Origin: Alphaproteobacteria bacterium
GTDB lineage: Bacteria; Pseudomonadota; Alphaproteobacteria; Rickettsiales; UBA1997
Length of the DNA stretch: 64,000 nucleotides
Assembly (NCBI GenBank): GCA_021151765.1
Contig: JAGKWR010000002.1
Span: forward strand, 49,918-113,917
Direction of reading: 5' to 3'
Each line of letters opens with the position of its first letter. Positions within the stretch are counted from its first letter, which is position 1. This document shows, piece by piece, positions 47,839 through 62,668 of this stretch. The position numbers were made by a program, and so were the translations under genes. A model generated the notes under the pieces. It worked only from the letters and a program-made list of their open reading frames with translations. It was not told the origin of the DNA and made no database searches.

Positions 47839-49788
47839 ATGAAAAAACCAAATATCAAAGCCTTCTCTCTGGTTGAAATCACGATCGTAATTTTAGTGAT
47901 TGGTGTTATTATTGCTGGTGTGTTGGCGAGTAATGTTTTGATTAAGAAGTTTCGTATAGCTACGGCGCAGAATTTGACGCAGTCGTCACCGATTCAAGGT
48001 ATTGCAGATTCGGTGTTGTGGTTGGAAACTAGTTTGGACAAGAGTTTTAAGGCTTCAGAGAGTGAGGATAAGTCGAAGTTGAGTGTGTGGTATGATGTTC
48101 GTGAGTCTATGTCTAAGAATAATGCTGTTCAAAGTGATGCTGCTTATGCTCCGAGTTATTCCAATAGTATTAATTATGTGCAAGCGGTGAAGTTTGATGG
48201 CACGAATGGTTATTTTACGGTGGATGGCTCAGTTTTGAACAATACGAATTACACGATTTTTGTTCTAGAGAGGAGAGAGAGTAACAAGAGCGGTAATTAT
48301 TTTATTGGTGATGCTTCATCTGAGAATCAATCAACTACGAATAAGAATTTAGTTTTAGGTTATAGTGCTGATGGGACGGTGATTCATTCGCAATCTAGTG
48401 ATAATTCTTACAGTTCGAGTATTTCGACTTATGCGTCCTCAACTGGCAAGGCGCGAGTTTTTAGTTTTGTTCATGATAGTTCTGTGGGTAAGAAGACTTA
48501 TATTAACGGACTTCTAGCTGCGACTTCGACTGATACTAATAATTTATCTGGGATGAACACTTTGACGATTGGTAAGTCTTATCAGGGTCAGATTGGCGAG
48601 ATTGTGATGTTTGCTCGTGCTTTGACTGATGAAGAGAGAGAATCGGTTGAAGATTATTTGGGTAAGAAATGGAACAGCACAATTTTACGTTCTATTGGTG
48701 GATCTGCTTCATCTGGCGGTATTGGTGGAAGTTGTGTTGGCGGAACTGTCAGCGATTCGGGATGTTTGATTTCTTGTACAGTAACTGCTGCTAATGGGAT
48801 CACAGCTACCACAGTTCAAGACGGATCTGGATCTTTAACTTGTAACGCTGCAGCAAATTTCACTGGTTCTTTGCCTTACTCCTGTGTCAACGGTGTCTTC
48901 CAATATACAGACAAAACAAGCTGCTCCTGCGCAACTGGTTATAATCTAACGGGCTCGACTTGTACACCAATTAACCCAAGTTGTTCAGGTGGCACCGAAT
49001 CTACCACAACTATTTCAGGAATTACTTACAAACTGCATACTTTTACATCTTCTGGAAATCTTGTTTGTACAGCTGGTGGCCGTAGTCAGGTATTAGTTGT
49101 AGCTGGTGGCGGCGGCGGTACATTTTTTGGTGGTGGTGGTGGCGGCGGCGGTGTCGTATTTAAGTCTAGCCATACTCTTACAGTCAAAACTTATAGTGTT
49201 ACAGTTGGTAGTGGTGGTATTGCTAATACTTCAGCTACAACCACTCCAGTTAATGGTGGCAACTCAGTTTTTGATACTATTACCACTTATGGTGGTGGTG
49301 GCGGTGGAAATAACTCTCTAGCAGCTGGAAAAGCTGGTGGCTCTGGTGGCGGAGCAAACAGGGGAGATGTTCCGAGCAGAGTTGGTGGTGCAGTTATTAC
49401 AAATATCGCAGACGGAGGAATTTCTTACGGAAACGTTGGCGGTGCCACAGCAAATATTACAGGTTGGGGTGGTGCTGGTGGAGGTGGAGGAGCTGGATCA
49501 GCAGGTGGTCAAGGAGGTTCTAACGGCACAGCAGCTGGAGAGGTTGGTGGTAGTGGTGGTAATGGCGTATCAATAAGTATAACAGGAACACCAACTTATT
49601 ATGCCGGTGGCGGTGGTGGTGCTGTTCAGGGAAACTTAACCCCATCACCTGGTGGTTTAGGTGGAGGTGGAGCTGGAGGTCGAAATCCAGTCGCCGGAAC
49701 AGATGGTTATGGTGGTGGTGGTGGTGGCTCAACTAACATACCTAAGAGAGGTGGTTCTGGTGTCGTAATTATTCGTTACGCTAAATAA
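47839..49788 (+). CDS. Prepilin-type N-terminal domain + LamG-like jellyroll + EGF-like Cys module + long Gly-rich C-terminal domain (649 aa)
   Basis: The N-terminus 'KKPNIKAFSLVEITIVILVIGVIIAGV' is pilin-like. The LamG_3 pattern runs 'LWLETS...VWYDV...VKFDGTNGYF...TIGKSYQGQIGEIVMFARALTDEERESVEDYLGKKWN'. An EGF-like 'CSCATGYNLTGSTCTP' follows. After that come 235 aa dominated by GGGGG runs and ending 'GSGVVIIRYAK'. Confidence 0.75.
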   Translation: MKKPNIKAFSLVEITIVILVIGVIIAGVLASNVLIKKFRIATAQNLTQSSPIQGIADSVLWLETSLDKSFKASESEDKSKLSVWYDVRESMSKNNAVQSDAAYAPSYSNSINYVQAVKFDGTNGYFTVDGSVLNNTNYTIFVLERRESNKSGNYFIGDASSENQSTTNKNLVLGYSADGTVIHSQSSDNSYSSSISTYASSTGKARVFSFVHDSSVGKKTYINGLLAATSTDTNNLSGMNTLTIGKSYQGQIGEIVMFARALTDEERESVEDYLGKKWNSTILRSIGGSASSGGIGGSCVGGTVSDSGCLISCTVTAANGITATTVQDGSGSLTCNAAANFTGSLPYSCVNGVFQYTDKTSCSCATGYNLTGSTCTPINPSCSGGTESTTTISGITYKLHTFTSSGNLVCTAGGRSQVLVVAGGGGGTFFGGGGGGGGVVFKSSHTLTVKTYSVTVGSGGIANTSATTTPVNGGNSVFDTITTYGGGGGGNNSLAAGKAGGSGGGANRGDVPSRVGGAVITNIADGGISYGNVGGATANITGWGGAGGGGGAGSAGGQGGSNGTAAGEVGGSGGNGVSISITGTPTYYAGGGGGAVQGNLTPSPGGLGGGGAGGRNPVAGTDGYGGGGGGSTNIPKRGGSGVVIIRYAK

Positions 49789-49790
49789 AT

Positions 49791-50825
49791 TTAACGTCCC
49801 ATTCCACCACCTTGGGAATTATTGCTGTGGTGAAATGGATTATTTACGTGAGATTGCAGCGATCCGGCATTGTCAATCATCTGCCCCATGACTTCACTAA
49901 CTCCTCGTACGTTCTCTTTCGTAATCACACTAGCGCGATCAGCAACTATTGCTGTGATTGCCCAATTACCAGTTTTAGCAGCAGTTTGTAAAATTGTTTC
50001 TCCGCCTAAATTGGCGTTCACATTCGCTCCATCTAAAACTAAACTATTAACTGAAGTAATATCGCCACTTAAAATGGCATCGTGCAATTGTTCTTCTTTA
50101 GTTTGCGAATTTTGCGGTGATGTTTGGTTATCGTTTATCTTACCAAATAAATTCTGCGAACTGCTTTTAGCGCCATTTTCTCGCAATACTGAAGTTAAAT
50201 CACGATCAATTTTCAAAATCGCAATATCCAAAGCTGACAAGCCTTCATTATTCAAAACATTGAGCTGCACACCTTCTGTAATTAGAAATTCCATCATCCA
50301 TTTTTTAACTCCAATTTTAACAGCAATATGAGCAGAATTATCACCATTTGGCGATCTAAAATTTACGTTTGCTCCGAGCATAATCAACCATTGCAAAAAC
50401 TTTTTACCGCGATTGCCCAACAAAGCTGCGCTTAAAGCGTTGAATTTACCTTTGCGATTAAATTTGTTGAGATCGGCTACATTAAACTCACAAACATCAA
50501 AAAAATTAGTAATCTCTTCAATATCAAGGTTTGAAGCACAAGCTGTAACAAATAATTCTTGAGCAATTTCCCGCAAATTTTTTTCAAAATTCGCGCCTTC
50601 TTTTTGCAATTCTTTTTTAAGCTGCTTCAGCTGATGTTGTAGTTCTTCCAACCAAGCTTTTTGATCTAAGTTACTACCTAAATATTTGGCACCAGCTAAT
50701 TTCTCTGCAAAATTATTAACATAGTCGCGATCAAATTTATCGGCTTTGTTCTGCTTAGATTTTGGCTCATTTTTTTGCGAAGAATCTTTTACAAACCAAG
50801 AAAAAACTCTCACAAAGAAAGCCAT
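49791..50825 (-). CDS. Ankyrin-repeat protein (344 aa), paralog of 43914-46172
   Basis: It shares the N-terminal domain ('...ELFVTACASNLDIEEITNFFDVCEF...') with the 752-aa protein. Ankyrin repeats include 'LGANVNFRSPNGDNSAHIAV', 'GVQLNVLNNEGLSALDIA' and 'DGANVNANLGGETILQTAA'. Confidence 0.75.
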   Translation of the reverse strand: MAFFVRVFSWFVKDSSQKNEPKSKQNKADKFDRDYVNNFAEKLAGAKYLGSNLDQKAWLEELQHQLKQLKKELQKEGANFEKNLREIAQELFVTACASNLDIEEITNFFDVCEFNVADLNKFNRKGKFNALSAALLGNRGKKFLQWLIMLGANVNFRSPNGDNSAHIAVKIGVKKWMMEFLITEGVQLNVLNNEGLSALDIAILKIDRDLTSVLRENGAKSSSQNLFGKINDNQTSPQNSQTKEEQLHDAILSGDITSVNSLVLDGANVNANLGGETILQTAAKTGNWAITAIVADRASVITKENVRGVSEVMGQMIDNAGSLQSHVNNPFHHSNNSQGGGMGR

Positions 50826-54664: not shown

Positions 54665-54842
54665 ATTTTTAGTATGTTTTGAATGCTTGATAATAAAGGC
54701 GGGAAGACATATGGAAATATTTTTTACGTTAGTTTTTCGATTTGAACATTGCAAATTATTTTTCGATTCATAATTTGCGCGACCTCACTTTCGAAATCAC
54801 TTCAAAAATTTTTCAAAAATTCGCAAAATTTATTTTTTATTT

Positions 54843-54917
54843 GCGGGCGTAGCTCAGTGGTAGAGTGTCACCTTGCCAAGGTGAATGTCGAGGGTTCGAA
54901 TCCCTTCGCCCGCTCCA
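54843..54917 (+). tRNA. tRNA-Gly (anticodon GCC), CCA encoded
   Basis: It reads gcgggcg-ta-gctcagtggtagagt-gtcac-cttGCCaag-gtgaa-tgtc-gagggttcgaatccctt-cgcccgc-tcca. A cloverleaf is evident, with the T-loop GGTTCGAAT. Confidence 0.9.
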
Positions 54918-54956
54918 AAAAACCAGACCTAATCGAAGGTCTGGTTTTTTTTTGCA
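54918..54956 (+). terminator. Rho-independent terminator after tRNA-Gly
   Basis: The sequence is aaaaaaccagacc-taatcgaa-ggtctggttttttttt. Confidence 0.65.
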
Positions 54957-55180
54957 CTAAATGTTTCCAGTTTTAAAAGAACCACAAATTAAAAATCTTC
55001 CCTACAAAACTGTTTTATTGAAATATTTCTCACCAAATAATCGTAAGTAGAATATTCTGACTGTTTAGAAAATACTCTGTATTCCAAAAAAATGGTCTGC
55101 ACAAAAAATCGTAGCCTAAATGAAAACAACATTTTAGTTTCAGAGCTGGTTCAAAATTCTTCGCTAAAGACCTGTCATTA

Positions 55181-58100
55181 ATGAATTTCAAAATCCCTAA
55201 ATTGCACAAGAACAAAATTCTTCAAGCGAGTATATCGTTGCTTGTGTTTGCTGGGATATTTCTGATATTTAATACTATTTCTCCTCCTAAAGATCTGCAA
55301 AGTGCGGTTTCTTCCTGCGTTTCTTATACTGGCGCTAATTCCGGAGTTAATTGCGCCTACCCTCCTTGTGCTTTATTAACTTCAGGTGCTAATCCTGGGG
55401 TAAATTGTTTACCTAATTGTGCAAATTTAACTGCTGCAACTTCCATAACTGGTAACTCAACTCCAGTTGGCGGTGTAAATTGTTATTATCTTGATAAACC
55501 TCTGTGTACTGCAACATCAAGATCCGTTTCGGTTATGGATATAAACATTCCTAATATCATGACCCCCCCTACAGCACCGGATCCTAGAACTAATTGTGCA
55601 GACTTAATTGATCTACCTCTTTGTGAACAAGTTACTCTTTCAACCGCGAATCCAACAGCCAATTGTGTAAAAGAATGTGGTGCAAACGATAATGTTGATA
55701 CAGCAACGTCCGGACATAATGTAACGTGTGTAAGATTTTGTGATAACATGCCAAATATAAATGGCACTAGTACCAAAATGACAGCTGTTCCTAGAACTTC
55801 TTCTTCCGTTGGTAATTGCGTTCCACGCCAATGTCATCAATTAGCAATCGGTACAAAACCAAACGGATCTAATTGCTCTTTGAATAGTTGTAATAAATTG
55901 TCTCCGGATGAAATGAATCAGAGCAGAATACAAAATGAAGATGATACTAATTTTGCCCAATATTGCGATGGCAGCACCGTTAAATGTTATGAGTTTTCAG
56001 CAAAACAACTTCCCTTTACTAGATATCGACTAAACAACACAATGTGTCAGATTCATAAATGTAAACCAGCAACCACTTCTTGCGGCAGAATTGACAGTTG
56101 TACTGGATTTACTTTGTACAGTGCAACTACTGATGATACTTTGAATATCTCATGTAACACCACTTCTGCTTTAGATAACGGATCAACTCAGCAATATAGC
56201 AGTCTCTATTCAAAATATATTAATGTTGGTCTTCCAATCTCTGACACTTCTTTTTGTCAAGCAGTTGTATGTAAACCAACTTACTATCTTCCTTACCCTT
56301 GTTCGGCTGATGCTAGTGGAAATCTAACAGTTAGAGATACAAATTGTGATGCTTCAGGTGATGGTTCAATATGCGGTACTGTCCAATGTAGTAAGAATGA
56401 TGAATGTAAAAAAGATCTAGGATTTTGTTACAAAACAATAGACTGCAATTTATCTAGCAACTCTACCAACTCTGTTTGTATTGCAGCAAATGGTTCTGAC
56501 GTTAGTAATGATGGCAATTTTGAAGATGATACAGATTCATCATTTCATAGACCAGTTCCACTTAATAAAGCTTATAAAAATAACGATCCATCACAGGGAT
56601 ATAGAATTTCTGGAACCTGCTACACAATAAATCAAATGAAATCACAATCTGATGATAGTAGCGATGATCATAAATGGGGAGTAGATCCAGTAATTCCAAT
56701 GTCTTGGCTCTTTGGTGCAAAAGATATAAGATTAGGCTATACTCATTCACAACTATCACCTGATCGTACAAGATCTCCTAAAGCTTGTGAACCGTCAAAG
56801 GTTGGTTCAAGAGGAACTGGTTATTCTTATCTGTGTGGCAATAAATCAAGTCTGTATAAACCAATAAGCGAGAAAAGCGCTTTTTACAAAGGATACGTAT
56901 CTACAGAATTTTTGGATAATGGTAATACTATTGCCAAACTAAATGTTTGTTTACGATTCAAAAATACTTTAAGACCTGATGATAATACAATTGATGACTC
57001 AGAAACATGTGGCTCGAGAGAATGCGCCATAAGCTATTTTTCAAGTAATCCAATTTCTCAAGCTTGCGGTTTTGATTATTGTCGCACTCTAACAGTAAAT
57101 TCAGTCAATCCGAAAGAATGTGCAATGAGTGGAGACTTATTTGATGTTACTCAAGCTAGCAACTCTAATAATGATAACAAAGCTTGTAGCGAAATAGTAG
57201 ACAGTAACCTCAGACTACGAGCTGTACAATATGGTAACAGAATATGCGCCTTTGTTGATTCATCGACTCAGTTTGCTTATAATAAAATGTTTTTTGATGA
57301 AAATGTTAAACTTGATGATGGAGTCACTTGCGTTAGCGGAACTTATAACCAAAAAACCAAAAAATGTGAAAATGGCAAAGATACTAATGATAAACCGGAA
57401 GAAGCAACACACTGGCGTACTATATTAAAAGTGAAATATACCGGTTCAAACACTGATCTGAATGGTTTTTATGATCGTAACGGCAAATTTATCAAAGCCC
57501 AAGAATGTGTTCAAGTGCCTCTCAGCGATTCACCACCAAACTTATACAATTTAGCTTCTTTACAAAATTCATCAAGAATGTTCACACCACCTTTATTCAT
57601 AAGAGCAATAAATTCAAAACGTGAAGGAGTACAAGTTTCATCAGATGCTTCCGGCACAACAGATTTCTTAGAACCTGAAGTAGTAGTTCAGTTCGGCACT
57701 TCCAATAAAACTCTTAGTATTGGCACTGGTTTAAGTGGCTATGAATCAACTCTTGATTCAAAAAGTTATGCTATGGACTCTACGGCTATAAAAACTGTAA
57801 TGAATGGAATCACTTACTCAGCTAATATTCTAATTAAAAAAGAATTTAATTCTGCAATCAATCAACCAACAGTTTGTTTATATCAAAGATTTAATTCAGA
57901 TAACGGATATTATGATATTAAAATTGGTTGTGCTAATAGATCGCTTCCAGAAATAGATAACGCCAACACTACTTCTCAAAGCTCTATTGGTGTTCGTAAA
58001 ATTAGTATAACTGCGGATACTAATGGAGTTAATACTCTAGATAAAACTACTCAAAAATACGGAGATGCTACCCTGATATTTAAATATTGTGGCGATGCGA

Positions 58101-61063
58101 GCTGTTCAAATTCGAAATCTATTAATTTCAAAAATATTGATCCATCACAACCAACTTGTTTAGGAACCCAAGAAAGTGATATGGAAAAATACAAAGTTTG
58201 TGTGCAACGCGATGAGTGTTCTCAATTGTGGAAAGAATGCATGGAGAACGAAATATCAATCCAAAATAATGGTGAAACCGAGTCAACTGCTGCAGAAAGA
58301 TTAAGATGTCAAAAGCTGGCTGTTAATTGTAACAACAAAAAAGGAATTACTTCACAAAGCAGTAACTTCGTTGATCAAGTTAACTCAACAATAGCAGATA
58401 CTGATGCTTATGGTTGGTTTAATGAGATGTGTATAGTTTCTGGCTTTTCTGATAAATTGTCACAAAAGCTGATTTACCGTAAAATAACTTCAGCAAGCAA
58501 TGTAAAAGGTAAATGCCTTGCTGTTCCGAAAAGCTCACTATCTTCAGTAAATAGCGCAAATTTACAAACTCTTGCCAATTCTTGCCCAAGAGGTGGTGAT
58601 GGAGTTAATTGTATATGTATTGATGCGACTACTGCAATAAGTGGCTATACAATAGATAATCCAACTCCTCATGAAGCTGGTCTTTGTATTTCAATTCCAA
58701 CGCCAAAAGTTTGTAGTTCTGTAAATTATGGCGGAGATAGTTATAACTCATCTTCTCTCGGAGGTTCAGCATATACTAGCTCCGGAGGAACCGTTAACAC
58801 ACAGCATGCGAATAGATCAACTTCTAACGTTGGAGCATCAGTTGGCGGAGGCTTTGGTGAATTCCCAACTTCAGTTGTTGGTATGAATAATATAAAAGGA
58901 ACTTGTAACGGCTTCTGGCAATCACAATCAACTAGTAGTGGTGTTATAAGTCCGAAAATGAATTGCTTAGACAATACTGCAAGTAGCACAAATGGTAAGT
59001 GGAGCGGTCTAATTACTAATTCAGAATCAGCAGCCTGCGTTCGTTTTTCTTCGCCTGCGATAACTACCGGAAATAATACAAATGATTCTGATGCCTCTGG
59101 CAATTATCCAAGTCAAACTTACACAAAATCAACCGAAACAAACGATGTAGCAAGCAATACCTTCGGAGCCGTTACACTTGGAACTAAAGGAGAATCAAAT
59201 GGCTACGCAATTTGGCCATCATTCACTAAAACTAACGATTTTCTACAAACTTACACCGCTACTTCTTGTATAGCAGGATATCGCACAAATTCACTCCCGA
59301 CAAGAGGAGTTGATCAACTTGGCAATCCAAAAAGCGTTAATAGTAGTTGCACCAGAATTACCTGTCCTGCAATTAATCCTTCAACTAATCCTATCGACTG
59401 GACGGCTTGGGCTGCATCAAAAGGCGCTTCATTTGGAGTTGAAGTTGATGCAATGGGTCGCCCACTTACTACAACCTACACAACTCCAGCCTCACGCAGC
59501 ATTTCTTCAGTTACACCAGGATCAACCAGAAAAGGTTATTGTAACACATCTCTTGGTTTCTTCCAAGCAGTTGGCAATTCACAACCAGAAAGAGATTGTT
59601 TATATGATGGAACTTGGGGACCAGTCAGAAATCCATGCGTGAGTTCTTGTAATGCAGTAACAAATCCTGGATCAAGCGATGGTTTTGCAACATGGCCAGC
59701 TTCAAATAATCTCACTGCTGGTCAAAGTGCTGTCGTATCTGGAACCTGCCAATCAGGTTATTCTCCTTACCCTTATCCAAGATTTAAAGATGATACTGGT
59801 ACAGCAATTACCCCAATCCCAAGCGCAACATCTGGCTCACCTGAAACAAGTCCGAAAAGAACTTGTCAATATTCTCAAGTTGTTGGTGGTGGAAGCGCTA
59901 ATACCTGGACCAATGTTTCTTCAACATGTGTAAATCAATGTCCTGGATATGATATAGATACTAGAGAAGGAGTTGGTAAAACTTCTCATAATACTGCACA
60001 ATTTGGATCAATTGAAATCAGATGGCCTTCAACCTCTACTGGAGCGACAATAACAAGAACTTTTGGTTATAACTCAGCTGGAACCGAAGTCGGATTCAAT
60101 AACCTAACTTCGCAAACTGCTTCTGATTATTCACAAGCTGGAAGAACTAACGGTTATTTCATTGTTTCCAGAACCTGCAATTCAAACTATACTTGGAGTG
60201 CTCCAGTTGTTCAATGCGCTACTAATGGCGGAACTGTTAATAACTCAATTATAGGTTCTAGCGGCAATAACACTACAGTGAATGCCGGCTCATCTGTTCA
60301 AGTAAATTCTTGCACAAGTAACTTCGGCACTCCTTCTATGCCTTCTTACCAATGCAAATCCTACAATGGTAGTACAGACTCTTATGGCTATCAAAACATC
60401 GATCAATATTACTACAGCCTAGTTTCAGGATCAGCTTGTGCAGCAATCACATGCAACTTAACAAATAACACATCTTATGGAGCAAGTGGTGGTTCCGTTT
60501 ATACAGGAACTACAAGAAATATTAACGTTGGAGAAGTAGTATCACTATCTTGTAAAAGTGGTTTTGGTAAAAATATTCCATCCCCTGCAATCACGAATGG
60601 TAACGATAGTAGTTGCGGCAGAACAGCTAACGATAGAACTTCTCAAAGTCCTACAGCAACTTGTACAAATAATAACGGCGTGGGAACAATCGTTGTAAAC
60701 AATGACTGCTCCGCATGTAGAAGTTGCAGTGCTAGCCAATATTCTTATATCAACTCATCTAATGTTAACTACACAGGACTTAACTGTTATGTTGGCTGCA
60801 GTGGCAATACTGACCAATGCTTTGTAATTAATCACTACAACAGATACGCAACAGTTCCAGCATCTGGATCAGTAAACGCATATGACTATTCTTGCGGTAA
60901 CGCTGGAGACAATGTTACAACTGTAACTTTTGATAACTGTGCTGCAAACACAACTTGCTCTAAAATCACGAATGGCGGCAAATGTGGTAGCAACACGGTG
61001 AGATACACGTGCGTCGACGGAGACTATCAGCTCGATTACTCAACTTGTGGATGGAGTTACTAA
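55181..61063 (+). CDS. Giant (1960 aa) secreted/surface Cys-, Ser-, Thr-, Asn-rich protein with N-terminal 'NCxxxC' mini-repeats and C-terminal sushi/CCP-like modules
   Basis: The N-terminal signal/anchor is 'ILQASISLLVFAGIFLIF'. There are more than 100 Cys residues. Repeated 'G(V)NC....C' units occur in roughly the first 240 aa. Residues about 1330-1800 carry CCP-like patterns 'CPAINPSTNP...GYCNTSLGFF....CLYDGTWGPVRNPC', 'CQSGYSPYPYP...RTCQYS..W....STC' and 'LSCKSGFGKNIPSPAITNG..C'. Confidence 0.7.
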   Translation: MNFKIPKLHKNKILQASISLLVFAGIFLIFNTISPPKDLQSAVSSCVSYTGANSGVNCAYPPCALLTSGANPGVNCLPNCANLTAATSITGNSTPVGGVNCYYLDKPLCTATSRSVSVMDINIPNIMTPPTAPDPRTNCADLIDLPLCEQVTLSTANPTANCVKECGANDNVDTATSGHNVTCVRFCDNMPNINGTSTKMTAVPRTSSSVGNCVPRQCHQLAIGTKPNGSNCSLNSCNKLSPDEMNQSRIQNEDDTNFAQYCDGSTVKCYEFSAKQLPFTRYRLNNTMCQIHKCKPATTSCGRIDSCTGFTLYSATTDDTLNISCNTTSALDNGSTQQYSSLYSKYINVGLPISDTSFCQAVVCKPTYYLPYPCSADASGNLTVRDTNCDASGDGSICGTVQCSKNDECKKDLGFCYKTIDCNLSSNSTNSVCIAANGSDVSNDGNFEDDTDSSFHRPVPLNKAYKNNDPSQGYRISGTCYTINQMKSQSDDSSDDHKWGVDPVIPMSWLFGAKDIRLGYTHSQLSPDRTRSPKACEPSKVGSRGTGYSYLCGNKSSLYKPISEKSAFYKGYVSTEFLDNGNTIAKLNVCLRFKNTLRPDDNTIDDSETCGSRECAISYFSSNPISQACGFDYCRTLTVNSVNPKECAMSGDLFDVTQASNSNNDNKACSEIVDSNLRLRAVQYGNRICAFVDSSTQFAYNKMFFDENVKLDDGVTCVSGTYNQKTKKCENGKDTNDKPEEATHWRTILKVKYTGSNTDLNGFYDRNGKFIKAQECVQVPLSDSPPNLYNLASLQNSSRMFTPPLFIRAINSKREGVQVSSDASGTTDFLEPEVVVQFGTSNKTLSIGTGLSGYESTLDSKSYAMDSTAIKTVMNGITYSANILIKKEFNSAINQPTVCLYQRFNSDNGYYDIKIGCANRSLPEIDNANTTSQSSIGVRKISITADTNGVNTLDKTTQKYGDATLIFKYCGDASCSNSKSINFKNIDPSQPTCLGTQESDMEKYKVCVQRDECSQLWKECMENEISIQNNGETESTAAERLRCQKLAVNCNNKKGITSQSSNFVDQVNSTIADTDAYGWFNEMCIVSGFSDKLSQKLIYRKITSASNVKGKCLAVPKSSLSSVNSANLQTLANSCPRGGDGVNCICIDATTAISGYTIDNPTPHEAGLCISIPTPKVCSSVNYGGDSYNSSSLGGSAYTSSGGTVNTQHANRSTSNVGASVGGGFGEFPTSVVGMNNIKGTCNGFWQSQSTSSGVISPKMNCLDNTASSTNGKWSGLITNSESAACVRFSSPAITTGNNTNDSDASGNYPSQTYTKSTETNDVASNTFGAVTLGTKGESNGYAIWPSFTKTNDFLQTYTATSCIAGYRTNSLPTRGVDQLGNPKSVNSSCTRITCPAINPSTNPIDWTAWAASKGASFGVEVDAMGRPLTTTYTTPASRSISSVTPGSTRKGYCNTSLGFFQAVGNSQPERDCLYDGTWGPVRNPCVSSCNAVTNPGSSDGFATWPASNNLTAGQSAVVSGTCQSGYSPYPYPRFKDDTGTAITPIPSATSGSPETSPKRTCQYSQVVGGGSANTWTNVSSTCVNQCPGYDIDTREGVGKTSHNTAQFGSIEIRWPSTSTGATITRTFGYNSAGTEVGFNNLTSQTASDYSQAGRTNGYFIVSRTCNSNYTWSAPVVQCATNGGTVNNSIIGSSGNNTTVNAGSSVQVNSCTSNFGTPSMPSYQCKSYNGSTDSYGYQNIDQYYYSLVSGSACAAITCNLTNNTSYGASGGSVYTGTTRNINVGEVVSLSCKSGFGKNIPSPAITNGNDSSCGRTANDRTSQSPTATCTNNNGVGTIVVNNDCSACRSCSASQYSYINSSNVNYTGLNCYVGCSGNTDQCFVINHYNRYATVPASGSVNAYDYSCGNAGDNVTTVTFDNCAANTTCSKITNGGKCGSNTVRYTCVDGDYQLDYSTCGWSY

Positions 61064-61079
61064 AATATCTGAAAAATAT

Positions 61080-62126
61080 TTAGTAAGAACTAAACAAACC
61101 TTTGATGTTTTTGGAATTACCTACTGAATCAAGCGACAGCATAACTAAAATTCTGGCTTTCTGCGGGGTTAAATTATCCGCAGTTAAAAAACCAAATTGA
61201 TCGTCATTAATCTCAACATTTGGCGCTACATTGCCGCTTAAAAGATGCGAAGAGCGTACAACTAAAATTCCTTTTTTTACCGCCTTTGCCAAAGCTTTCA
61301 CTGTTTCTTGATTAATATTTCCATCACCAACTCCCGCCAAAATTATAGCTTTTGTGTTAGCCGCAACCAAGTCATCAATTTGTTTAGGATCAAAGCCAGC
61401 GTAGGCGTAAACGATATCAACTTGCGGTAATTTCTTAATTTTTGCGACATCAAATTCTGAATCTTTAGTGTGCAAACGTAACGGCGCATAATAAAAATTT
61501 ACCTTACCATAATGAACATTGCCGATCGCTCCAGCATTTGGCGCAGCAAAGGCCATAACGTTTGTTGTATGAGTTTTTGTAACATCGCGAGCTGCTAAAA
61601 TTTGTTCATTCATTACTACTAAAACGCCTTTATTTTTAGCATTATCGTCAGCCGCAACTGCAACAGCATTGTACAAATTCAACGGACCATCCGCACTGAT
61701 TGAAGTTGCGGGACGCATTGCACCCACTAAAATTACTGGCTTATCGCTTTTCACTGTAAGGTTTAGAAAATAAGCCGTTTCTTCCATCGTGTCAGTTCCA
61801 TGAGTAATCACCACTGCATCAACTTCTTTTTGCGCCAAAGTTTCATTCACTTTTTTGGCGATCACTAACCAGTCATTTTGATTAATATCTTGGCTGCCTT
61901 TTTGCATAATTTGCTGCGCCGAAATATTGGCCAACTTTTCAATTCCCGCCGAACTTTTGACAATTTGATCAATATTAATTTTCGACGAAGAATATTGCGA
62001 CTTATTTGCCGATTCTCCAGCACCAGAAATAGTTCCACCCGTTGCTAAAATAACGATATTTTTGGCCATAGAATCAAAAGAGAAAATTGATAACGAAAAT
62101 AATAAACAAAACTGCGATAACTTCAT
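61080..62126 (-). CDS. ansB: L-asparaginase type II (periplasmic)
   Basis: A signal peptide is followed by the 'ILATGGTISG' catalytic Thr motif and 'VITHGTDTMEETAYFL'. Confidence 0.88.
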   Translation of the reverse strand: MKLSQFCLLFSLSIFSFDSMAKNIVILATGGTISGAGESANKSQYSSSKINIDQIVKSSAGIEKLANISAQQIMQKGSQDINQNDWLVIAKKVNETLAQKEVDAVVITHGTDTMEETAYFLNLTVKSDKPVILVGAMRPATSISADGPLNLYNAVAVAADDNAKNKGVLVVMNEQILAARDVTKTHTTNVMAFAAPNAGAIGNVHYGKVNFYYAPLRLHTKDSEFDVAKIKKLPQVDIVYAYAGFDPKQIDDLVAANTKAIILAGVGDGNINQETVKALAKAVKKGILVVRSSHLLSGNVAPNVEINDDQFGFLTADNLTPQKARILVMLSLDSVGNSKNIKGLFSSY

Positions 62127-62668
62127 GAATTGCCTCTACTAGTTGAATTAATTGTAAATTTACTCACATCCCAACCAGCACCTTTAACTAAGTGTGGATT
62201 TTGTTGGTTACTGCGTTTTTCTACACGAGTACCGTTTGTCATAACTGGTTGCATAACATCAATTACACTCTGCAATAACCCAATCGAATTTAAATCAACA
62301 TTGTCAGAAGCTGAAGAAATCTGATCTTCTTGCATGGCAAGATAGAGCAAATCAAACTTTGAAACTTGCAAATCGAAACTTTCAACTATGTGCGAAATTT
62401 TTTGTTCATTCAAAATACCGTATTTAGCTGCTATTGCCAAAAAAAGCTTTTGATCTTCTTTATTCGCAAGATTTGAAGAGAGCTCGATGAATAAATCATA
62501 TCGCAATTCTGAGTTTGAAATTTCTTTAATCTCTTGGCACAAATCAGAAACGGAACGAAAATCACCAAAATTAATTCTGCCAGATAGACCTGACTGTTTT
62601 ATGTTTTGATATTTCTCTTGCTCAAGTCTTCCGTTTTCACTTTGATGATTTGTTGTACGGAACATCAC
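62123..62668 (-). CDS. Hypothetical protein (181 aa)
   Basis: It is an ORF only, with 4-nt overlaps to queH upstream and ansB downstream, which suggests co-transcription. Confidence 0.4.

What the first reader, a model, noticed from the sequence alone, without database searches (positions are those of the whole stretch)
55181..61063. 1960-aa Cys-rich secreted protein with eukaryote-like sushi/CCP modules, inserted next to tRNA-Gly
This is the largest gene in the window. It has an N-terminal signal anchor, well over 100 cysteines and long S/T/N-rich stretches. The first ~240 aa form a run of short 'G(V)NC-x3-6-C' mini-repeats. The last roughly 600 aa contain several modules matching the sushi/CCP consensus (C1-P-x-I/P...; Y-x-C2-x-x-G-Y/F; C3-x(3-6)-G-x-W-x(4-6)-P-x-C4), for example '...GYCNTSLGFFQAVGNSQPERDCLYDGTWGPVRNPC'. 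CCP domains are overwhelmingly eukaryotic (complement regulators, selectins). In an ankyrin-rich intracellular bacterium a giant CCP-bearing surface protein suggests host mimicry or adhesion. The gene starts about 260 bp downstream of a tRNA-Gly and its terminator, and tRNA 3' flanks are classic integration sites for horizontally acquired DNA. ansB converges on the far side with only 16 bp between the stops.
Basis: partly seen in the sequence, partly recalled or inferred. Interest (0 to 1): 0.7.

Follow-up and report, generated by a model that had tools for sequence, protein, structure and literature searches.

The report
Giant cysteine-rich surface protein, swappable tip
This gene encodes a 1,960-residue exported, disulfide-rich protein that is inherited vertically in one group of aquatic Rickettsiales that live on protist cells; it ends in seven sushi-like modules and a short tail that has been swapped between lineages, which makes it a good candidate host-attachment protein and not a recently imported eukaryotic gene.

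Summary
The ORF at 55181-61063 is real and under purifying selection (dN/dS about 0.13 against an 88%-identical orthologue). It has one N-terminal hydrophobic segment, exactly 100 Cys and eight NC-x3-8-C mini-repeats.

No Pfam, NCBIfam or PDB sequence hit exists for the window protein. A confident AlphaFold model of residues 1160-1960 matches only CCP/sushi proteins (CR2, factor XIII-B, beta2-GPI, CD55). Pfam Sushi matches 13 of 20 homologues' C-terminal regions at E<=0.1, and three checked homologues pass the curated cut-off. The modules are sushi-like in fold but divergent in sequence.

The recent-acquisition idea fails. About 100 full-length homologues exist, all in uncultured aquatic Rickettsiales (Ca. 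Gamibacteraceae / GTDB UBA1997, reported epibionts of cryptophytes). In 43 of 50 loci the gene lies between murD and purE. Only the window lineage has it beside tRNA-Gly, with native GC, no integrase and no att repeat, so it was relocated.

Residues 40-1170 form an orphan region with no sequence or fold relatives. The last ~110 residues, after a conserved NDCxACRxC motif, are a polymorphic cassette exchanged between lineages.

The most likely role is a surface adhesin with a variable tip. That function is inferred, not shown.

The parts
54843..54917 (+). tRNA-Gly (GCC). It is conserved next to the BON-domain gene in relatives too.
   Evidence: ARAGORN. Rfam tRNA at 72.5 bits. The same tRNA sits beside BON in L055, L056 and L057.
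54917..54953 (+). Intrinsic terminator hairpin of the tRNA (14-bp stem, T-run). It separates the tRNA from the giant gene.
   Evidence: Sequence. Fold dG -19.4 kcal/mol, z -6.5, with 0 of 200 shuffles as stable.
55181..61063 (+). Whole gene: 1960 aa, 100 Cys, S/T/N-rich. It is a member of an orphan family restricted to one Rickettsiales clade.
   Evidence: There are 38 full-length homologues and 144 representatives in 1.84 billion proteins. dN/dS is 0.13 against P0002.
55214..55282 (+). Only hydrophobic segment (residues ~12-34, after a K-rich N-terminus). It is a Sec signal peptide or an uncleaved signal anchor.
   Evidence: Kyte-Doolittle scan: the top 8 windows all start at residues 11-18. 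The N-terminus is conserved in the family consensus.
55316..55900 (+). Run of eight NC-x3-8-C mini-repeats (residues 46-240). The structure prediction here is low-confidence.
   Evidence: 8 motifs against 1.4 expected. The Cys are nearly invariant in the family. pLDDT is 37-70.
55901..56620 (+). Second Cys-rich region (residues 241-480). It is conserved and has no known domain.
   Evidence: Invariant Cys at 269, 289, 294, 364, 374, 389, 398, 416 and 422. No Pfam hit.
56621..58690 (+). Conserved, mostly beta-rich orphan core (residues 481-1170). It is confidently modelled but has no fold or sequence relative.
58706..59044 (+). CCP-like module 1 (res 1176-1288): C1178, C1242, C1262, W1274, C1286. 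It has a long C1-C2 insert.
   Evidence: hhalign M1-M3 at 95.8%. AF2 plus Foldseek.
59045..59356 (+). CCP-like module 2 (res 1289-1392). The window protein lacks C1 (S1291), C3 (V1377) and the Trp, but keeps C1363 and C1390.
   Evidence: The Cys columns at 1291 and 1377 are 96% Cys in 70 sequences. They are lost together only in the window protein and P0002. The Pfam Sushi hit of P0012 maps here.
59357..59644 (+). CCP-like module 3 (res 1393-1488): C1395, C1454, C1473, W1479, C1486.
   Evidence: hhalign M2-M3 at 96.3%. pLDDT is 80-91.
59645..59935 (+). CCP-like module 4 (res 1489-1585): C1490, C1523, C1562, W1576, C1583.
   Evidence: hhalign M2-M4 at 95.9%..
59936..60214 (+). Module 5 (res 1586-1678): C1587, C1666, W1672. 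It is atypical, with three Cys shared with the next module boundary.
   Evidence: Only weak hhalign links to other modules. It is modelled as beta-rich with pLDDT 70-92.
60215..60445 (+). CCP-like module 6 (res 1679-1755): C1679, C1711, C1725, C1753, no Trp.
   Evidence: hhalign to M1-M4 at 65-71%. Cys are >=99% conserved.
60446..60715 (+). CCP-like module 7 (res 1756-1845): C1758, C1791, C1828, C1843, plus an extra pair C1812/C1846. The Trp is lost in the window protein.
   Evidence: Pfam Sushi (P0022, P0034) and Ephrin_CRD (P0016, P0022, P0034) hits of homologues map here. The family consensus scores Ephrin_CRD 27.8 bits. C1812 and C1846 are co-absent in 17 of 18.
60701..60727 (+). Conserved junction motif NDCSACRSC (res 1841-1849). 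Similarity between close relatives stops right after it.
   Evidence: It is the only occurrence in six frames of the window.
60728..61060 (+). Polymorphic C-terminal tail (res 1850-1960): 9 Cys, and a C-V-D-G motif near the end.
   Evidence: 37% identity to P0002 over the last 115 residues (1846-1960), against 88% over the body. Tail types are distributed as a mosaic. No Pfam hit. pLDDT <50.
61080..62126 (-). ansB (L-asparaginase), convergent, with 16 nt between the stops. In relative L057 ansB is separated from the tRNA-Gly only by an HSP20 gene.

Best explanation
**What it is**

This is the window organism's copy of a clade-specific giant envelope or surface protein. The clade is an uncultured group of aquatic Rickettsiales, Ca. 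Gamibacteraceae (GTDB family UBA1997) and close relatives.

**How it is built and exported**

The protein is exported through Sec by its single N-terminal hydrophobic segment. It is then oxidised into a heavily disulfide-bonded structure. From N to C it has four parts:
- A Cys mini-repeat region plus an orphan core, together about 1,130 residues. This is the most conserved part and probably carries the family's core activity or its anchoring in the envelope.
- A stalk of seven divergent CCP/sushi-like beta-sandwich modules.
- A conserved NDCxACRxC junction motif.
- A tail of about 85-150 residues containing Cys, which has been replaced repeatedly by recombination between lineages.

**Most likely function**

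The most likely role is attachment to the surface of a eukaryotic (protist) host. In this reading the CCP modules act as a rigid spacer and the exchangeable tail acts as the specificity-determining tip.

**Origin of the tRNA-Gly position**

The gene is ancestral and vertically inherited, with an original position between murD and purE. In the lineage of this window it was relocated into the variable 3' flank of tRNA-Gly.

**Shown versus inferred**
- Shown: the gene is real, the architecture, the fold class of the C-terminal modules, the clade restriction, the synteny and relocation, and the tail mosaicism.
- Inferred: export route, surface exposure, adhesion, and the tail as a specificity determinant.
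For: **The gene is real and constrained**
- dN/dS is 0.09 for residues 40-1170 and 0.13 for the CCP region, measured against the 88%-identical orthologue.
- About 90 Cys are invariant or nearly invariant across 38-70 sequences.

**Export**
- The protein has one hydrophobic segment, at residues 12-34, and it is conserved in the family.
- 100 Cys implies folding outside the cytoplasm. This rests on general knowledge of bacterial disulfide formation.

**CCP-like stalk**
- The AF2 model of residues 1160-1960 has mean pLDDT 72.6, with most module blocks at 80-92.
- The ten Foldseek-PDB hits with E<=0.001 are all CCP proteins. Examples are CR2 (1.4e-6), factor XIII-B (7.5e-6), beta2-GPI (prob 0.99) and CD55 (prob 1.0). 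Eph-receptor ectodomains come next.
- Pfam Sushi matches 13 of 20 homologues' C-terminal regions at E<=0.1 (best 1.9e-9). Ephrin_CRD matches 10 of 20 and HRM 5 of 20.
- Three checked homologues pass the Sushi curated cut-off.
- The modules are internal repeats, with hhalign probabilities up to 96%.
- C1 and C3 of module 2 were lost together, which fits a 1-3 disulfide.

**Clade restriction and vertical descent**
- There are 38 full-length hits, none with a described function.
- Only 144 representatives appear among 1.84 billion proteins.
- The 50 genomic loci are all aquatic Rickettsiales-like MAGs.
- murD and/or purE flank the gene in 43 of 50 loci.
- UBA2645, RIFCSPLOWO2_01_FULL_40_26 and C-132 carry the gene (L006, L009, L041). 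They are named members of Ca. Gamibacteraceae.

**Relocation**
- Only the window and L055 have the gene between tRNA-Gly and ansB.
- Relatives L056 and L057 keep BON and tRNA-Gly but have other genes in that flank.
- GC is native and there is no att-like repeat.

**Variable tip**
- Seven pairs with 75-96% identical bodies have tails with no detectable similarity. The breakpoint falls right after the junction motif.
- Similar tails occur on bodies that are only 36-42% identical. Examples are P0008/P0023 (E 9e-44) and P0006/L021 (E 5e-45).

**Lifestyle context**
- UBA1997 cells were seen by CARD-FISH attached to freshwater cryptophytes (bioRxiv 10.1101/2023.01.31.526412).
- An ectosymbiotic ancestry was proposed for Gamibacteraceae plus Deianiraea (bioRxiv 10.1101/2021.08.31.458344).
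Against: - There is no direct evidence that the protein crosses the outer membrane. No autotransporter barrel, T1SS signal or other secretion marker was detected.
- The long h-region could make it an inner-membrane signal anchor with a periplasmic body.
- Deep conservation and near single-copy status are more typical of housekeeping envelope components than of adhesins. So is probable co-transcription with murD, where the genes overlap by 20 nt in L003.
- The window protein itself fails the Pfam Sushi model. The family consensus scores only 13.7 bits. Family profiles find no PDB sequences. The CCP assignment therefore rests on a predicted structure plus homologues.
- Predicted disulfide geometry could not be inspected.
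- Codon usage is the most deviant in the window (RSCU distance 0.62, GC3 0.229). This is unexplained.
Confidence: 0.55

Rival explanations
1. One reading: a eukaryote-derived CCP protein was recently acquired horizontally and integrated at the 3' flank of tRNA-Gly. An intracellular bacterium uses it for host (complement-type) mimicry.
For: - The gene lies 263 nt downstream of tRNA-Gly.
- That flank differs between relatives.
- The C-terminal modules have a CCP-like fold.
- Codon usage is the most deviant in the window.
Against: - Full-length orthologues exist in about 50 species-level genomes, with a conserved murD-X-purE position.
- GC equals the window mean.
- There is no integrase or other mobile gene between the tRNA and ansB, and no repeat of the tRNA end.
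- dN/dS is 0.13.
- 60% of the protein is an orphan region found only in this bacterial clade.
- Similarity to eukaryotic Sushi sequences is marginal.
- Relatives are described as epibionts of protists, which have no complement system.
Confidence: 0.05
2. It is a periplasmic or envelope scaffold. The protein stays anchored in the inner membrane by its N-terminus. Through its many disulfides it stiffens or organises the cell envelope, in functional analogy to chlamydial cysteine-rich envelope proteins, and it is linked to peptidoglycan synthesis.
For: - The N-terminal hydrophobic stretch is long enough to be a membrane anchor.
- The ancestral position is immediately downstream of, and overlapping, murD.
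- The gene is near-universal and mostly single-copy in the clade.
- Purifying selection is strong.
- No outer-membrane secretion signature was found.
Against: - A housekeeping scaffold gives no reason for a C-terminal tail that is exchanged repeatedly between lineages.
- Seven tandem CCP-like modules form an extended rod. This is inferred from known CCP proteins and suits reaching outward better than periplasmic packing.
- The family evolves much faster than housekeeping proteins: 36-53% identity where LysRS keeps 77-91%.
Confidence: 0.22
3. It is a polymorphic toxin or effector. The conserved body is a delivery scaffold, and the variable C-terminal cassette after the NDCxACRxC motif is a toxic or host-manipulating domain released at the target cell.
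For: - A conserved junction motif is followed by an abrupt loss of similarity, and cassette types are distributed as a mosaic. This is the hallmark architecture of polymorphic toxins such as CdiA and Rhs (general knowledge).
Against: - No immunity gene is possible in most loci. In most loci the next gene starts only about 30-70 nt after the stop, and in the window ansB ends 16 nt away.
- No tail matches a toxin family or any other Pfam family.
- No orphan cassettes occur in the window or in 50 loci.
- No T5/T6/T7-type delivery domains were detected.
- The tails are small and Cys-rich, which looks more like binding modules.
Confidence: 0.12
4. It is a spurious or decaying ORF, either low-complexity sequence read as a gene or a pseudogene.
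For: The composition is S/T/N-rich, and the window protein has no database domain hit.
Against: - The reading frame is uninterrupted for 5.9 kb.
- Orthologues are full-length and colinear.
- dN/dS is 0.09-0.13.
- Structure models are confident over most of the length.
Confidence: 0.01

Closest known systems
Eukaryotic CCP/sushi (SCR) repeat proteins: complement receptors CR1/CR2, factor H, CD55, beta2-glycoprotein I, factor XIII B subunit, selectin stalks
   Same: - It has tandem small beta-sandwich modules with four Cys and a Trp between C3 and C4.
- Short 3-4-residue linkers join C4 to the next C1.
- These proteins are the top structural matches.
- As in selectins, the modules sit between a membrane-proximal part and a distal, probably ligand-binding end.
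   Different: - It is bacterial.
- The modules are 77-113 aa instead of about 60, with long C1-C2 inserts.
- The window protein fails the Pfam Sushi model.
- Two modules lack the Trp and one has lost a disulfide.
- The modules make up only a third of a protein whose remainder has no eukaryotic counterpart.
Eph receptor cysteine-rich domain (Pfam Ephrin_CRD, PF25599) and hormone receptor domain (HRM, PF02793)
   Same: - These sushi-like disulfide-rich folds are hit by 10 of 20 and 5 of 20 homologues.
- The family consensus also hits Ephrin_CRD at 27.8 bits, against a cut-off of 27.
- Eph ectodomains appear among the structural matches.
   Different: - The hits cover single modules, mainly module 7.
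- There is no ephrin-binding domain, EGF or fibronectin context.
Giant modular bacterial surface adhesins (for example FhaB-type, SiiE/LapA-type and autotransporter adhesins)
   Same: - It is very large, exported and repeat-built, with an extended shape.
- It is a candidate for host-surface attachment in a host-associated bacterium.
- FhaB/FhaC were already proposed as adhesins in this clade.
   Different: - There is no TPS domain, no Ig-like/BIg or RTX repeats, no beta-barrel and no T1SS signal.
- It is extremely Cys-rich, whereas T1SS and T5SS passengers are typically Cys-poor (general knowledge).
- It has an orphan N-terminal body.
Polymorphic toxin systems (CdiA-CT, Rhs-CT, MafB)
   Same: A conserved body, a short conserved junction motif, and a C-terminal cassette exchanged between strains.
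   Different: There is no immunity gene, no known toxin domain, no orphan cassettes and no matching secretion apparatus.
Chlamydial cysteine-rich envelope proteins (OmcA/OmcB)
   Same: It is a Cys-rich exported protein of a host-associated bacterium with a reduced genome, and it may have a structural role through disulfide cross-links.
   Different: No sequence or domain similarity was detected. The size and architecture are quite different. This is an analogy recalled from knowledge, not a tested relationship.

Membership tests
Sushi / CCP / SCR domain (Pfam PF00084) | The sequence matches the Pfam Sushi HMM above the gathering score (20.7 bits). | tested here: not met
   The window protein gets 0 Pfam families at E<=10, both as the whole protein and as residues 1160-1960. 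The family consensus scores 13.7 bits. Orthologues do pass: P0012 25.7, P0022 25.4 and P0034 29.2 bits. At E<=0.1, 13 of 20 match.
Sushi / CCP / SCR domain (Pfam PF00084) | Small beta-sandwich fold resembling solved CCP modules. | tested here: met
   AF2 model of residues 1160-1960 with module pLDDT mostly 80-92. The ten Foldseek-PDB hits with E<=0.001 are all CCP proteins, with prob up to 1.0. This rests on a predicted structure.
Sushi / CCP / SCR domain (Pfam PF00084) | Four conserved Cys per module of about 60 aa, and a conserved Trp between C3 and C4. | tested here: inconclusive
   In the family, modules 1-4, 6 and 7 have four Cys that are >=96% conserved. Trp is present in modules 1, 3, 4 and 5 of the window protein. 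However, the modules are 77-113 aa, module 5 has three Cys, module 6 has no Trp, and the window protein has lost two Cys and the Trp in module 2 and the Trp in module 7.
Sushi / CCP / SCR domain (Pfam PF00084) | Disulfide pattern C1-C3 and C2-C4. | tested here: inconclusive
   The only informative event is that C1 (col. 1291) and C3 (col. 1377) of module 2 were lost together in the window protein plus P0002. That is a single evolutionary event.
Genomic island integrated at a tRNA gene | Integrase or other mobility gene next to the tRNA, and a direct repeat of the tRNA 3' end at the far border. | tested here: not met
   The giant gene is the only gene-sized ORF between the tRNA and ansB. No direct-repeat family involves the tRNA in 54800-61400.
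Genomic island integrated at a tRNA gene | Foreign composition and patchy distribution among relatives. | tested here: not met
   GC is 0.379, equal to the window mean. Codon usage is deviant (RSCU distance 0.62). Orthologues are present across the clade in a conserved murD-purE position.
Polymorphic toxin systems | Conserved body, junction motif and variable C-terminal domain. | tested here: met
   the NDCxACRxC motif, abrupt breakpoints in four independent close pairs, and a mosaic distribution of tail types.
Polymorphic toxin systems | A cognate immunity gene immediately downstream, and a recognisable toxin domain. | tested here: not met
   In most loci the next gene is only 16 to about 70 nt away. 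Eight tail types have no Pfam hit at E<=1. No orphan cassettes were found.
Type V (autotransporter/TPS) or type I secreted adhesins | C-terminal beta-barrel, TPS domain, or RTX / T1SS C-terminal signal. | tested here: not met
   No Pfam or NCBIfam domain of any kind in the window protein. The only adhesin-related Pfam match among 20 C-terminal regions is one stray HiaBD2 hit at E 0.024. The C-terminus is a Cys-rich variable tail.
The orphan family itself (Gamibacteraceae-type giant Cys-rich protein) | Full-length colinearity with family members, including the invariant Cys framework and motifs such as NCADLIDLPLC, YGWFNE and REAGLC. | tested here: met
   28-88% identity over 62-100% of the query length to the 37 other hits, and >=85% for most. 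There are 71 invariant columns in the 38-sequence alignment. The motifs were used successfully to find 50 genomic loci.

The most novel reading that the evidence does not exclude
The family is the host-attachment organelle of epibiotic Rickettsiales (Gamibacteraceae/UBA1997). A membrane-anchored orphan body carries a CCP-module stalk that was originally captured from a eukaryote. The stalk presents a small disulfide-rich tip domain. Cassette exchange of that tip between lineages, at the NDCxACRxC junction, switches which protist surface the bacterium can hold on to. This would be a new type of bacterial adhesin with a recombination-driven specificity module, acting at the evolutionary stage that preceded intracellularity in Rickettsiales.
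Probability: 0.25. Interest if true: 0.8.

Novelty: new variant of a known kind. Interest (0 to 1): 0.6.

Why it matters
- Ca. Gamibacteraceae/UBA1997 sit at the proposed transition between free-living and intracellular Rickettsiales. They have been seen attached to cryptophyte algae, but no attachment factor specific to them has been described.
- This family is clade-restricted, nearly universal, exported and very large. It also carries an exchangeable tip. That makes it a concrete, testable candidate for host attachment.
- It is a well-supported case of tandem CCP/sushi-like modules in a bacterial protein that is inherited vertically, not recently borrowed from a host.
- It contains about 1,100 residues of confidently modelled protein with no detectable relative in the PDB or in 1.84 billion sequences.
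- For genome scanning, it shows that "big odd gene next to a tRNA" need not mean foreign DNA.

Tried and rejected
- **Domain searches on the window protein.** Pfam and NCBIfam gave nothing even at E<=10.
- **PDB sequence searches.** phmmer of the whole protein and family profiles of residues 1160-1960 and 40-1170 gave no hits at E<=10.
- **Profile search with the C-terminal alignment against the 5.8-billion-sequence database.** This returned only five family fragments. It was uninformative about non-family CCP relatives.
- **Pfam on larger relatives (2,500-4,800 aa).** Only sub-threshold SUEL-lectin and Ephrin_CRD hits appeared, and they were not used.
- **Pfam on eight tail types.** Nothing was found.
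- **Search for silent tail cassettes or extra junction motifs in the window and loci.** None were found.
- **Rfam on the 5' region.** Only the tRNA was found, with no riboswitch or leader. The sigma-70 promoter scan of 54700-55300 found none.
- **Literature.** No paper links sushi domains with Rickettsiales. The accession numbers of the window-related assemblies were not found.


Full report
**1. Observation**

The ORF 55181-61063 (+) encodes 1960 aa. tRNA-Gly(GCC) lies at 54843-54917. It is followed by a strong hairpin and T-run at 54917-54953, with dG -19.4 kcal/mol and z -6.5. The start codon is 263 nt downstream of the tRNA. ansB converges on the gene with 16 nt between the stops.

The protein has exactly 100 Cys, and S+T+N make up 32.5%. 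It has one hydrophobic segment, at residues ~12-34. Residues 57-237 contain eight [NT]C-x3-8-C motifs, against 1.4 expected from shuffles and a maximum of 5 in 2000.

**2. Is it a real gene?**

Yes. The closest orthologue is P0002, at 88% identity, and its DNA is held as L055. Against it, dN/dS is 0.09 for residues 40-1170 and 0.13 for the CCP region. Thirty-eight full-length colinear homologues share 71 invariant columns, most of them Cys.

**3. The sushi/CCP claim**

Sequence methods fail on the window protein itself:
- Pfam and NCBIfam give no hit at E<=10.
- PDB sequence searches give no hit.

Three lines of evidence support CCP-like modules:
- *Predicted fold.* An AlphaFold2 model of residues 1160-1960, built from a 20-sequence family alignment, has mean pLDDT 72.6. 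Most module blocks are at 80-92 and the model is all-beta. The ten Foldseek-PDB hits with E<=0.001 are all CCP proteins, and Eph-receptor ectodomains come next. The top hits are CR2, factor XIII B, CR1, beta2-glycoprotein I (prob 0.99), CD55 (prob 1.0) and CD46; factor H and factor B appear further down the list.
- *Homologues.* Pfam Sushi matches 13 of 20 C-terminal regions at E<=0.1 (best 1.9e-9). Ephrin_CRD matches 10 of 20 and HRM 5 of 20. Three checked proteins exceed the Sushi gathering score. These hits map to modules 2 and 7 of the window protein.
- *Internal repeats.* The modules are mutually related, with hhalign probabilities of 96% for M2-M3, M2-M4 and M1-M3, and 89% for M3-M7.

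A 70-sequence alignment shows the module Cys are >=96% conserved. The only paired loss is C1 and C3 of module 2, in the window protein and P0002. That fits a 1-3 disulfide.

The limits of the assignment are clear:
- The family consensus scores only 13.7 bits on Sushi, and 27.8 on Ephrin_CRD.
- The modules are 77-113 aa long.
- Module 5 is atypical.
- The window protein has lost the Trp in modules 2 and 7.

I therefore call them CCP/sushi-like in fold. They are a divergent offshoot, not clean PF00084 members.

**4. The rest of the protein**

Residues 40-1170 are the most conserved part. Mean pairwise identity is 0.41, against 0.38 for the CCP part and 0.20 for the tail.

An exhaustive profile search of 1.84 billion representative proteins found only 144 hits. 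All look like family members, fragments or longer relatives of 2,400-4,800 aa.

**5. Who has it, and where**

A scan of one genome per GTDB species found 50 loci. All are in uncultured aquatic MAGs labelled Rickettsiales or Alphaproteobacteria, and some carry clearly wrong names. The loci include UBA2645, RIFCSPLOWO2_01_FULL_40_26 and C-132. These three are the named members of Candidatus Gamibacteraceae (bioRxiv 10.1101/2021.08.31.458344). A MAG called UBA1997 is also among them. The GTDB family UBA1997 was shown by CARD-FISH to live attached to freshwater cryptophytes (bioRxiv 10.1101/2023.01.31.526412).

The window's LysRS is 77-91% identical to proteins of the same kind of MAGs. The giant protein is only 28-53% identical outside its closest relative, so it evolves fast but keeps its architecture.

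**6. Synteny and the tRNA-Gly question**

In 43 of 50 loci the gene is flanked by murD (TIGR01087, 360 bits) and/or purE. The wider block NDUFA12-MlaD-DUF2155-rpe-murD-X-purE is conserved. In L003 murD overlaps the gene start by 20 nt. No relative has tRNA-Gly beside the gene.

Only the window and the 88% relative L055 show BON-tRNA-Gly-X-ansB. Two relatives were reached through their LysRS genes. Both keep BON and tRNA-Gly but have other content in the tRNA's 3' flank. In L057 this is an HSP20 gene followed by ansB. In L056 it is a 136-aa ORF followed by ftsW.

So the flank is a variable spot, and the clade's own gene moved there in one lineage. There is no integrase, no att-like repeat and no GC anomaly. 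The one oddity is codon usage: GC3 is 0.229 and the RSCU distance of 0.62 is the largest in the window.

**7. An unexpected feature: a polymorphic tail**

Similarity between otherwise close proteins stops abruptly after the nearly universal motif W-x4-NDC-x-AC-R-x-C (window residues 1841-1849).
- The window protein and P0002 are 88% identical in the body. Over the last 115 residues they are 34-37% identical (34% in the pairwise alignment, 37% in the family alignment), and no nucleotide similarity is detectable.
- The same pattern holds for P0013/L020 (body 96%), L013/L026 (86%), P0018/P0023 (83%) and three more pairs.
- Conversely, similar tails sit on distant bodies. Examples are P0008/P0023 (56% identity, E 9e-44, body 42%), P0006/L021 (54%, E 5e-45, body 38%) and P0002/L021 (43%, E 2e-27, body 36%).

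The tails are 85-150 aa long, carry 3-9 Cys and usually end with a C-x-D-G motif. This is cassette exchange by recombination.

It resembles polymorphic toxins, but three features are missing:
- There is no room for an immunity gene.
- No tail matches any Pfam family.
- There are no silent cassettes nearby.

**8. Mechanism**

The best-supported reading has four steps:
- Export is Sec-dependent through the N-terminal segment.
- The protein folds oxidatively outside the cytoplasm.
- A conserved body is followed by a rod of seven CCP-like modules.
- The rod presents an exchangeable tip.

The relatives have an epibiotic lifestyle, so attachment to protist surfaces is the most economical function, with the tail setting specificity.

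The main rival is an envelope scaffold tied to peptidoglycan synthesis. That rival explains the murD linkage and the deep conservation, but not the tail exchange. A toxin or effector role for the tail is possible but lacks its usual hallmarks. The export route across the outer membrane is unknown, and that is the weakest link.

**9. Novelty**

None of the papers my searches returned describes this family. All database copies are unnamed or labelled "hypothetical protein".

It is a new variant of a known kind, the giant modular bacterial surface protein. The combination is unusual: an orphan body, a vertically inherited CCP-like stalk and a recombining tip.

Noticed in passing
window 60701-61060 (protein residues 1841-1960); the same region in L005-L055: The last ~110 residues form a cassette-like polymorphic tail after a conserved NDCxACRxC motif. 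Close relatives carry unrelated tails, and distant relatives share similar ones.
   Followed up: yes
L056 7122-7661; L057 6012-7375; window 54918-61079: The 3' flank of the conserved BON-adjacent tRNA-Gly(GCC) differs in every lineage examined. It holds a 136-aa ORF in L056, HSP20 then ansB in L057, and the giant gene in the window and L055. This looks like a local rearrangement hotspot without visible mobile-element genes.
   Followed up: partly
window 62123-62668 (-): A 181-aa ORF with no Pfam family sits between ansB and queH in the window (and in L001/L002). It is absent from the 88%-related locus L055, where ansB and queH are adjacent.
   Followed up: no
window 47839-49785 (+) and 49794-50825 (-): A 649-aa Gly_rich_2 (PF21722) protein and an ankyrin-repeat protein lie 5-7 kb upstream. 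One family member of the giant protein (P0027, 2472 aa) carries a precomputed PF21722 (Gly_rich_2) hit and has a glycine-rich C-terminal end instead of a Cys tail.
   Followed up: no
L050 7335-20258; L054 7494-20438: Two distant relatives have ORFs of about 4,300 aa starting right after murD; in L050 the ORF also ends just before purE. Representatives of 3,700-4,800 aa also exist (P0117, P0120, P0154), with sub-threshold SUEL-lectin hits in two of them.
   Followed up: partly
L015 and L024 (both from MAG CAZUPN01): One MAG carries two diverged copies (34% and 30% identity to the window protein). Neither is in the murD-purE context. They may be paralogues or a mixed bin.
   Followed up: no
window 55181-61060: Codon usage is the most deviant of all long ORFs in the window (RSCU distance 0.62, GC3 0.229), although overall GC is average. 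The cause is unknown.
   Followed up: partly
L003 13113-14105 and equivalents in L013, L029, L035, L043: One to three copies of a ~330-aa protein with a weak N_methyl (prepilin-type) signal lie a few kb or less downstream of purE in many relatives. A link to export of the giant protein is conceivable but untested.
   Followed up: no
record titles of L005-L054: Many MAGs that carry the gene are deposited under implausible names (Rickettsia typhi, Rhizobium sp., Lentimonas sp.). Gene content and synteny place them with the Rickettsiales-like group.
   Followed up: no
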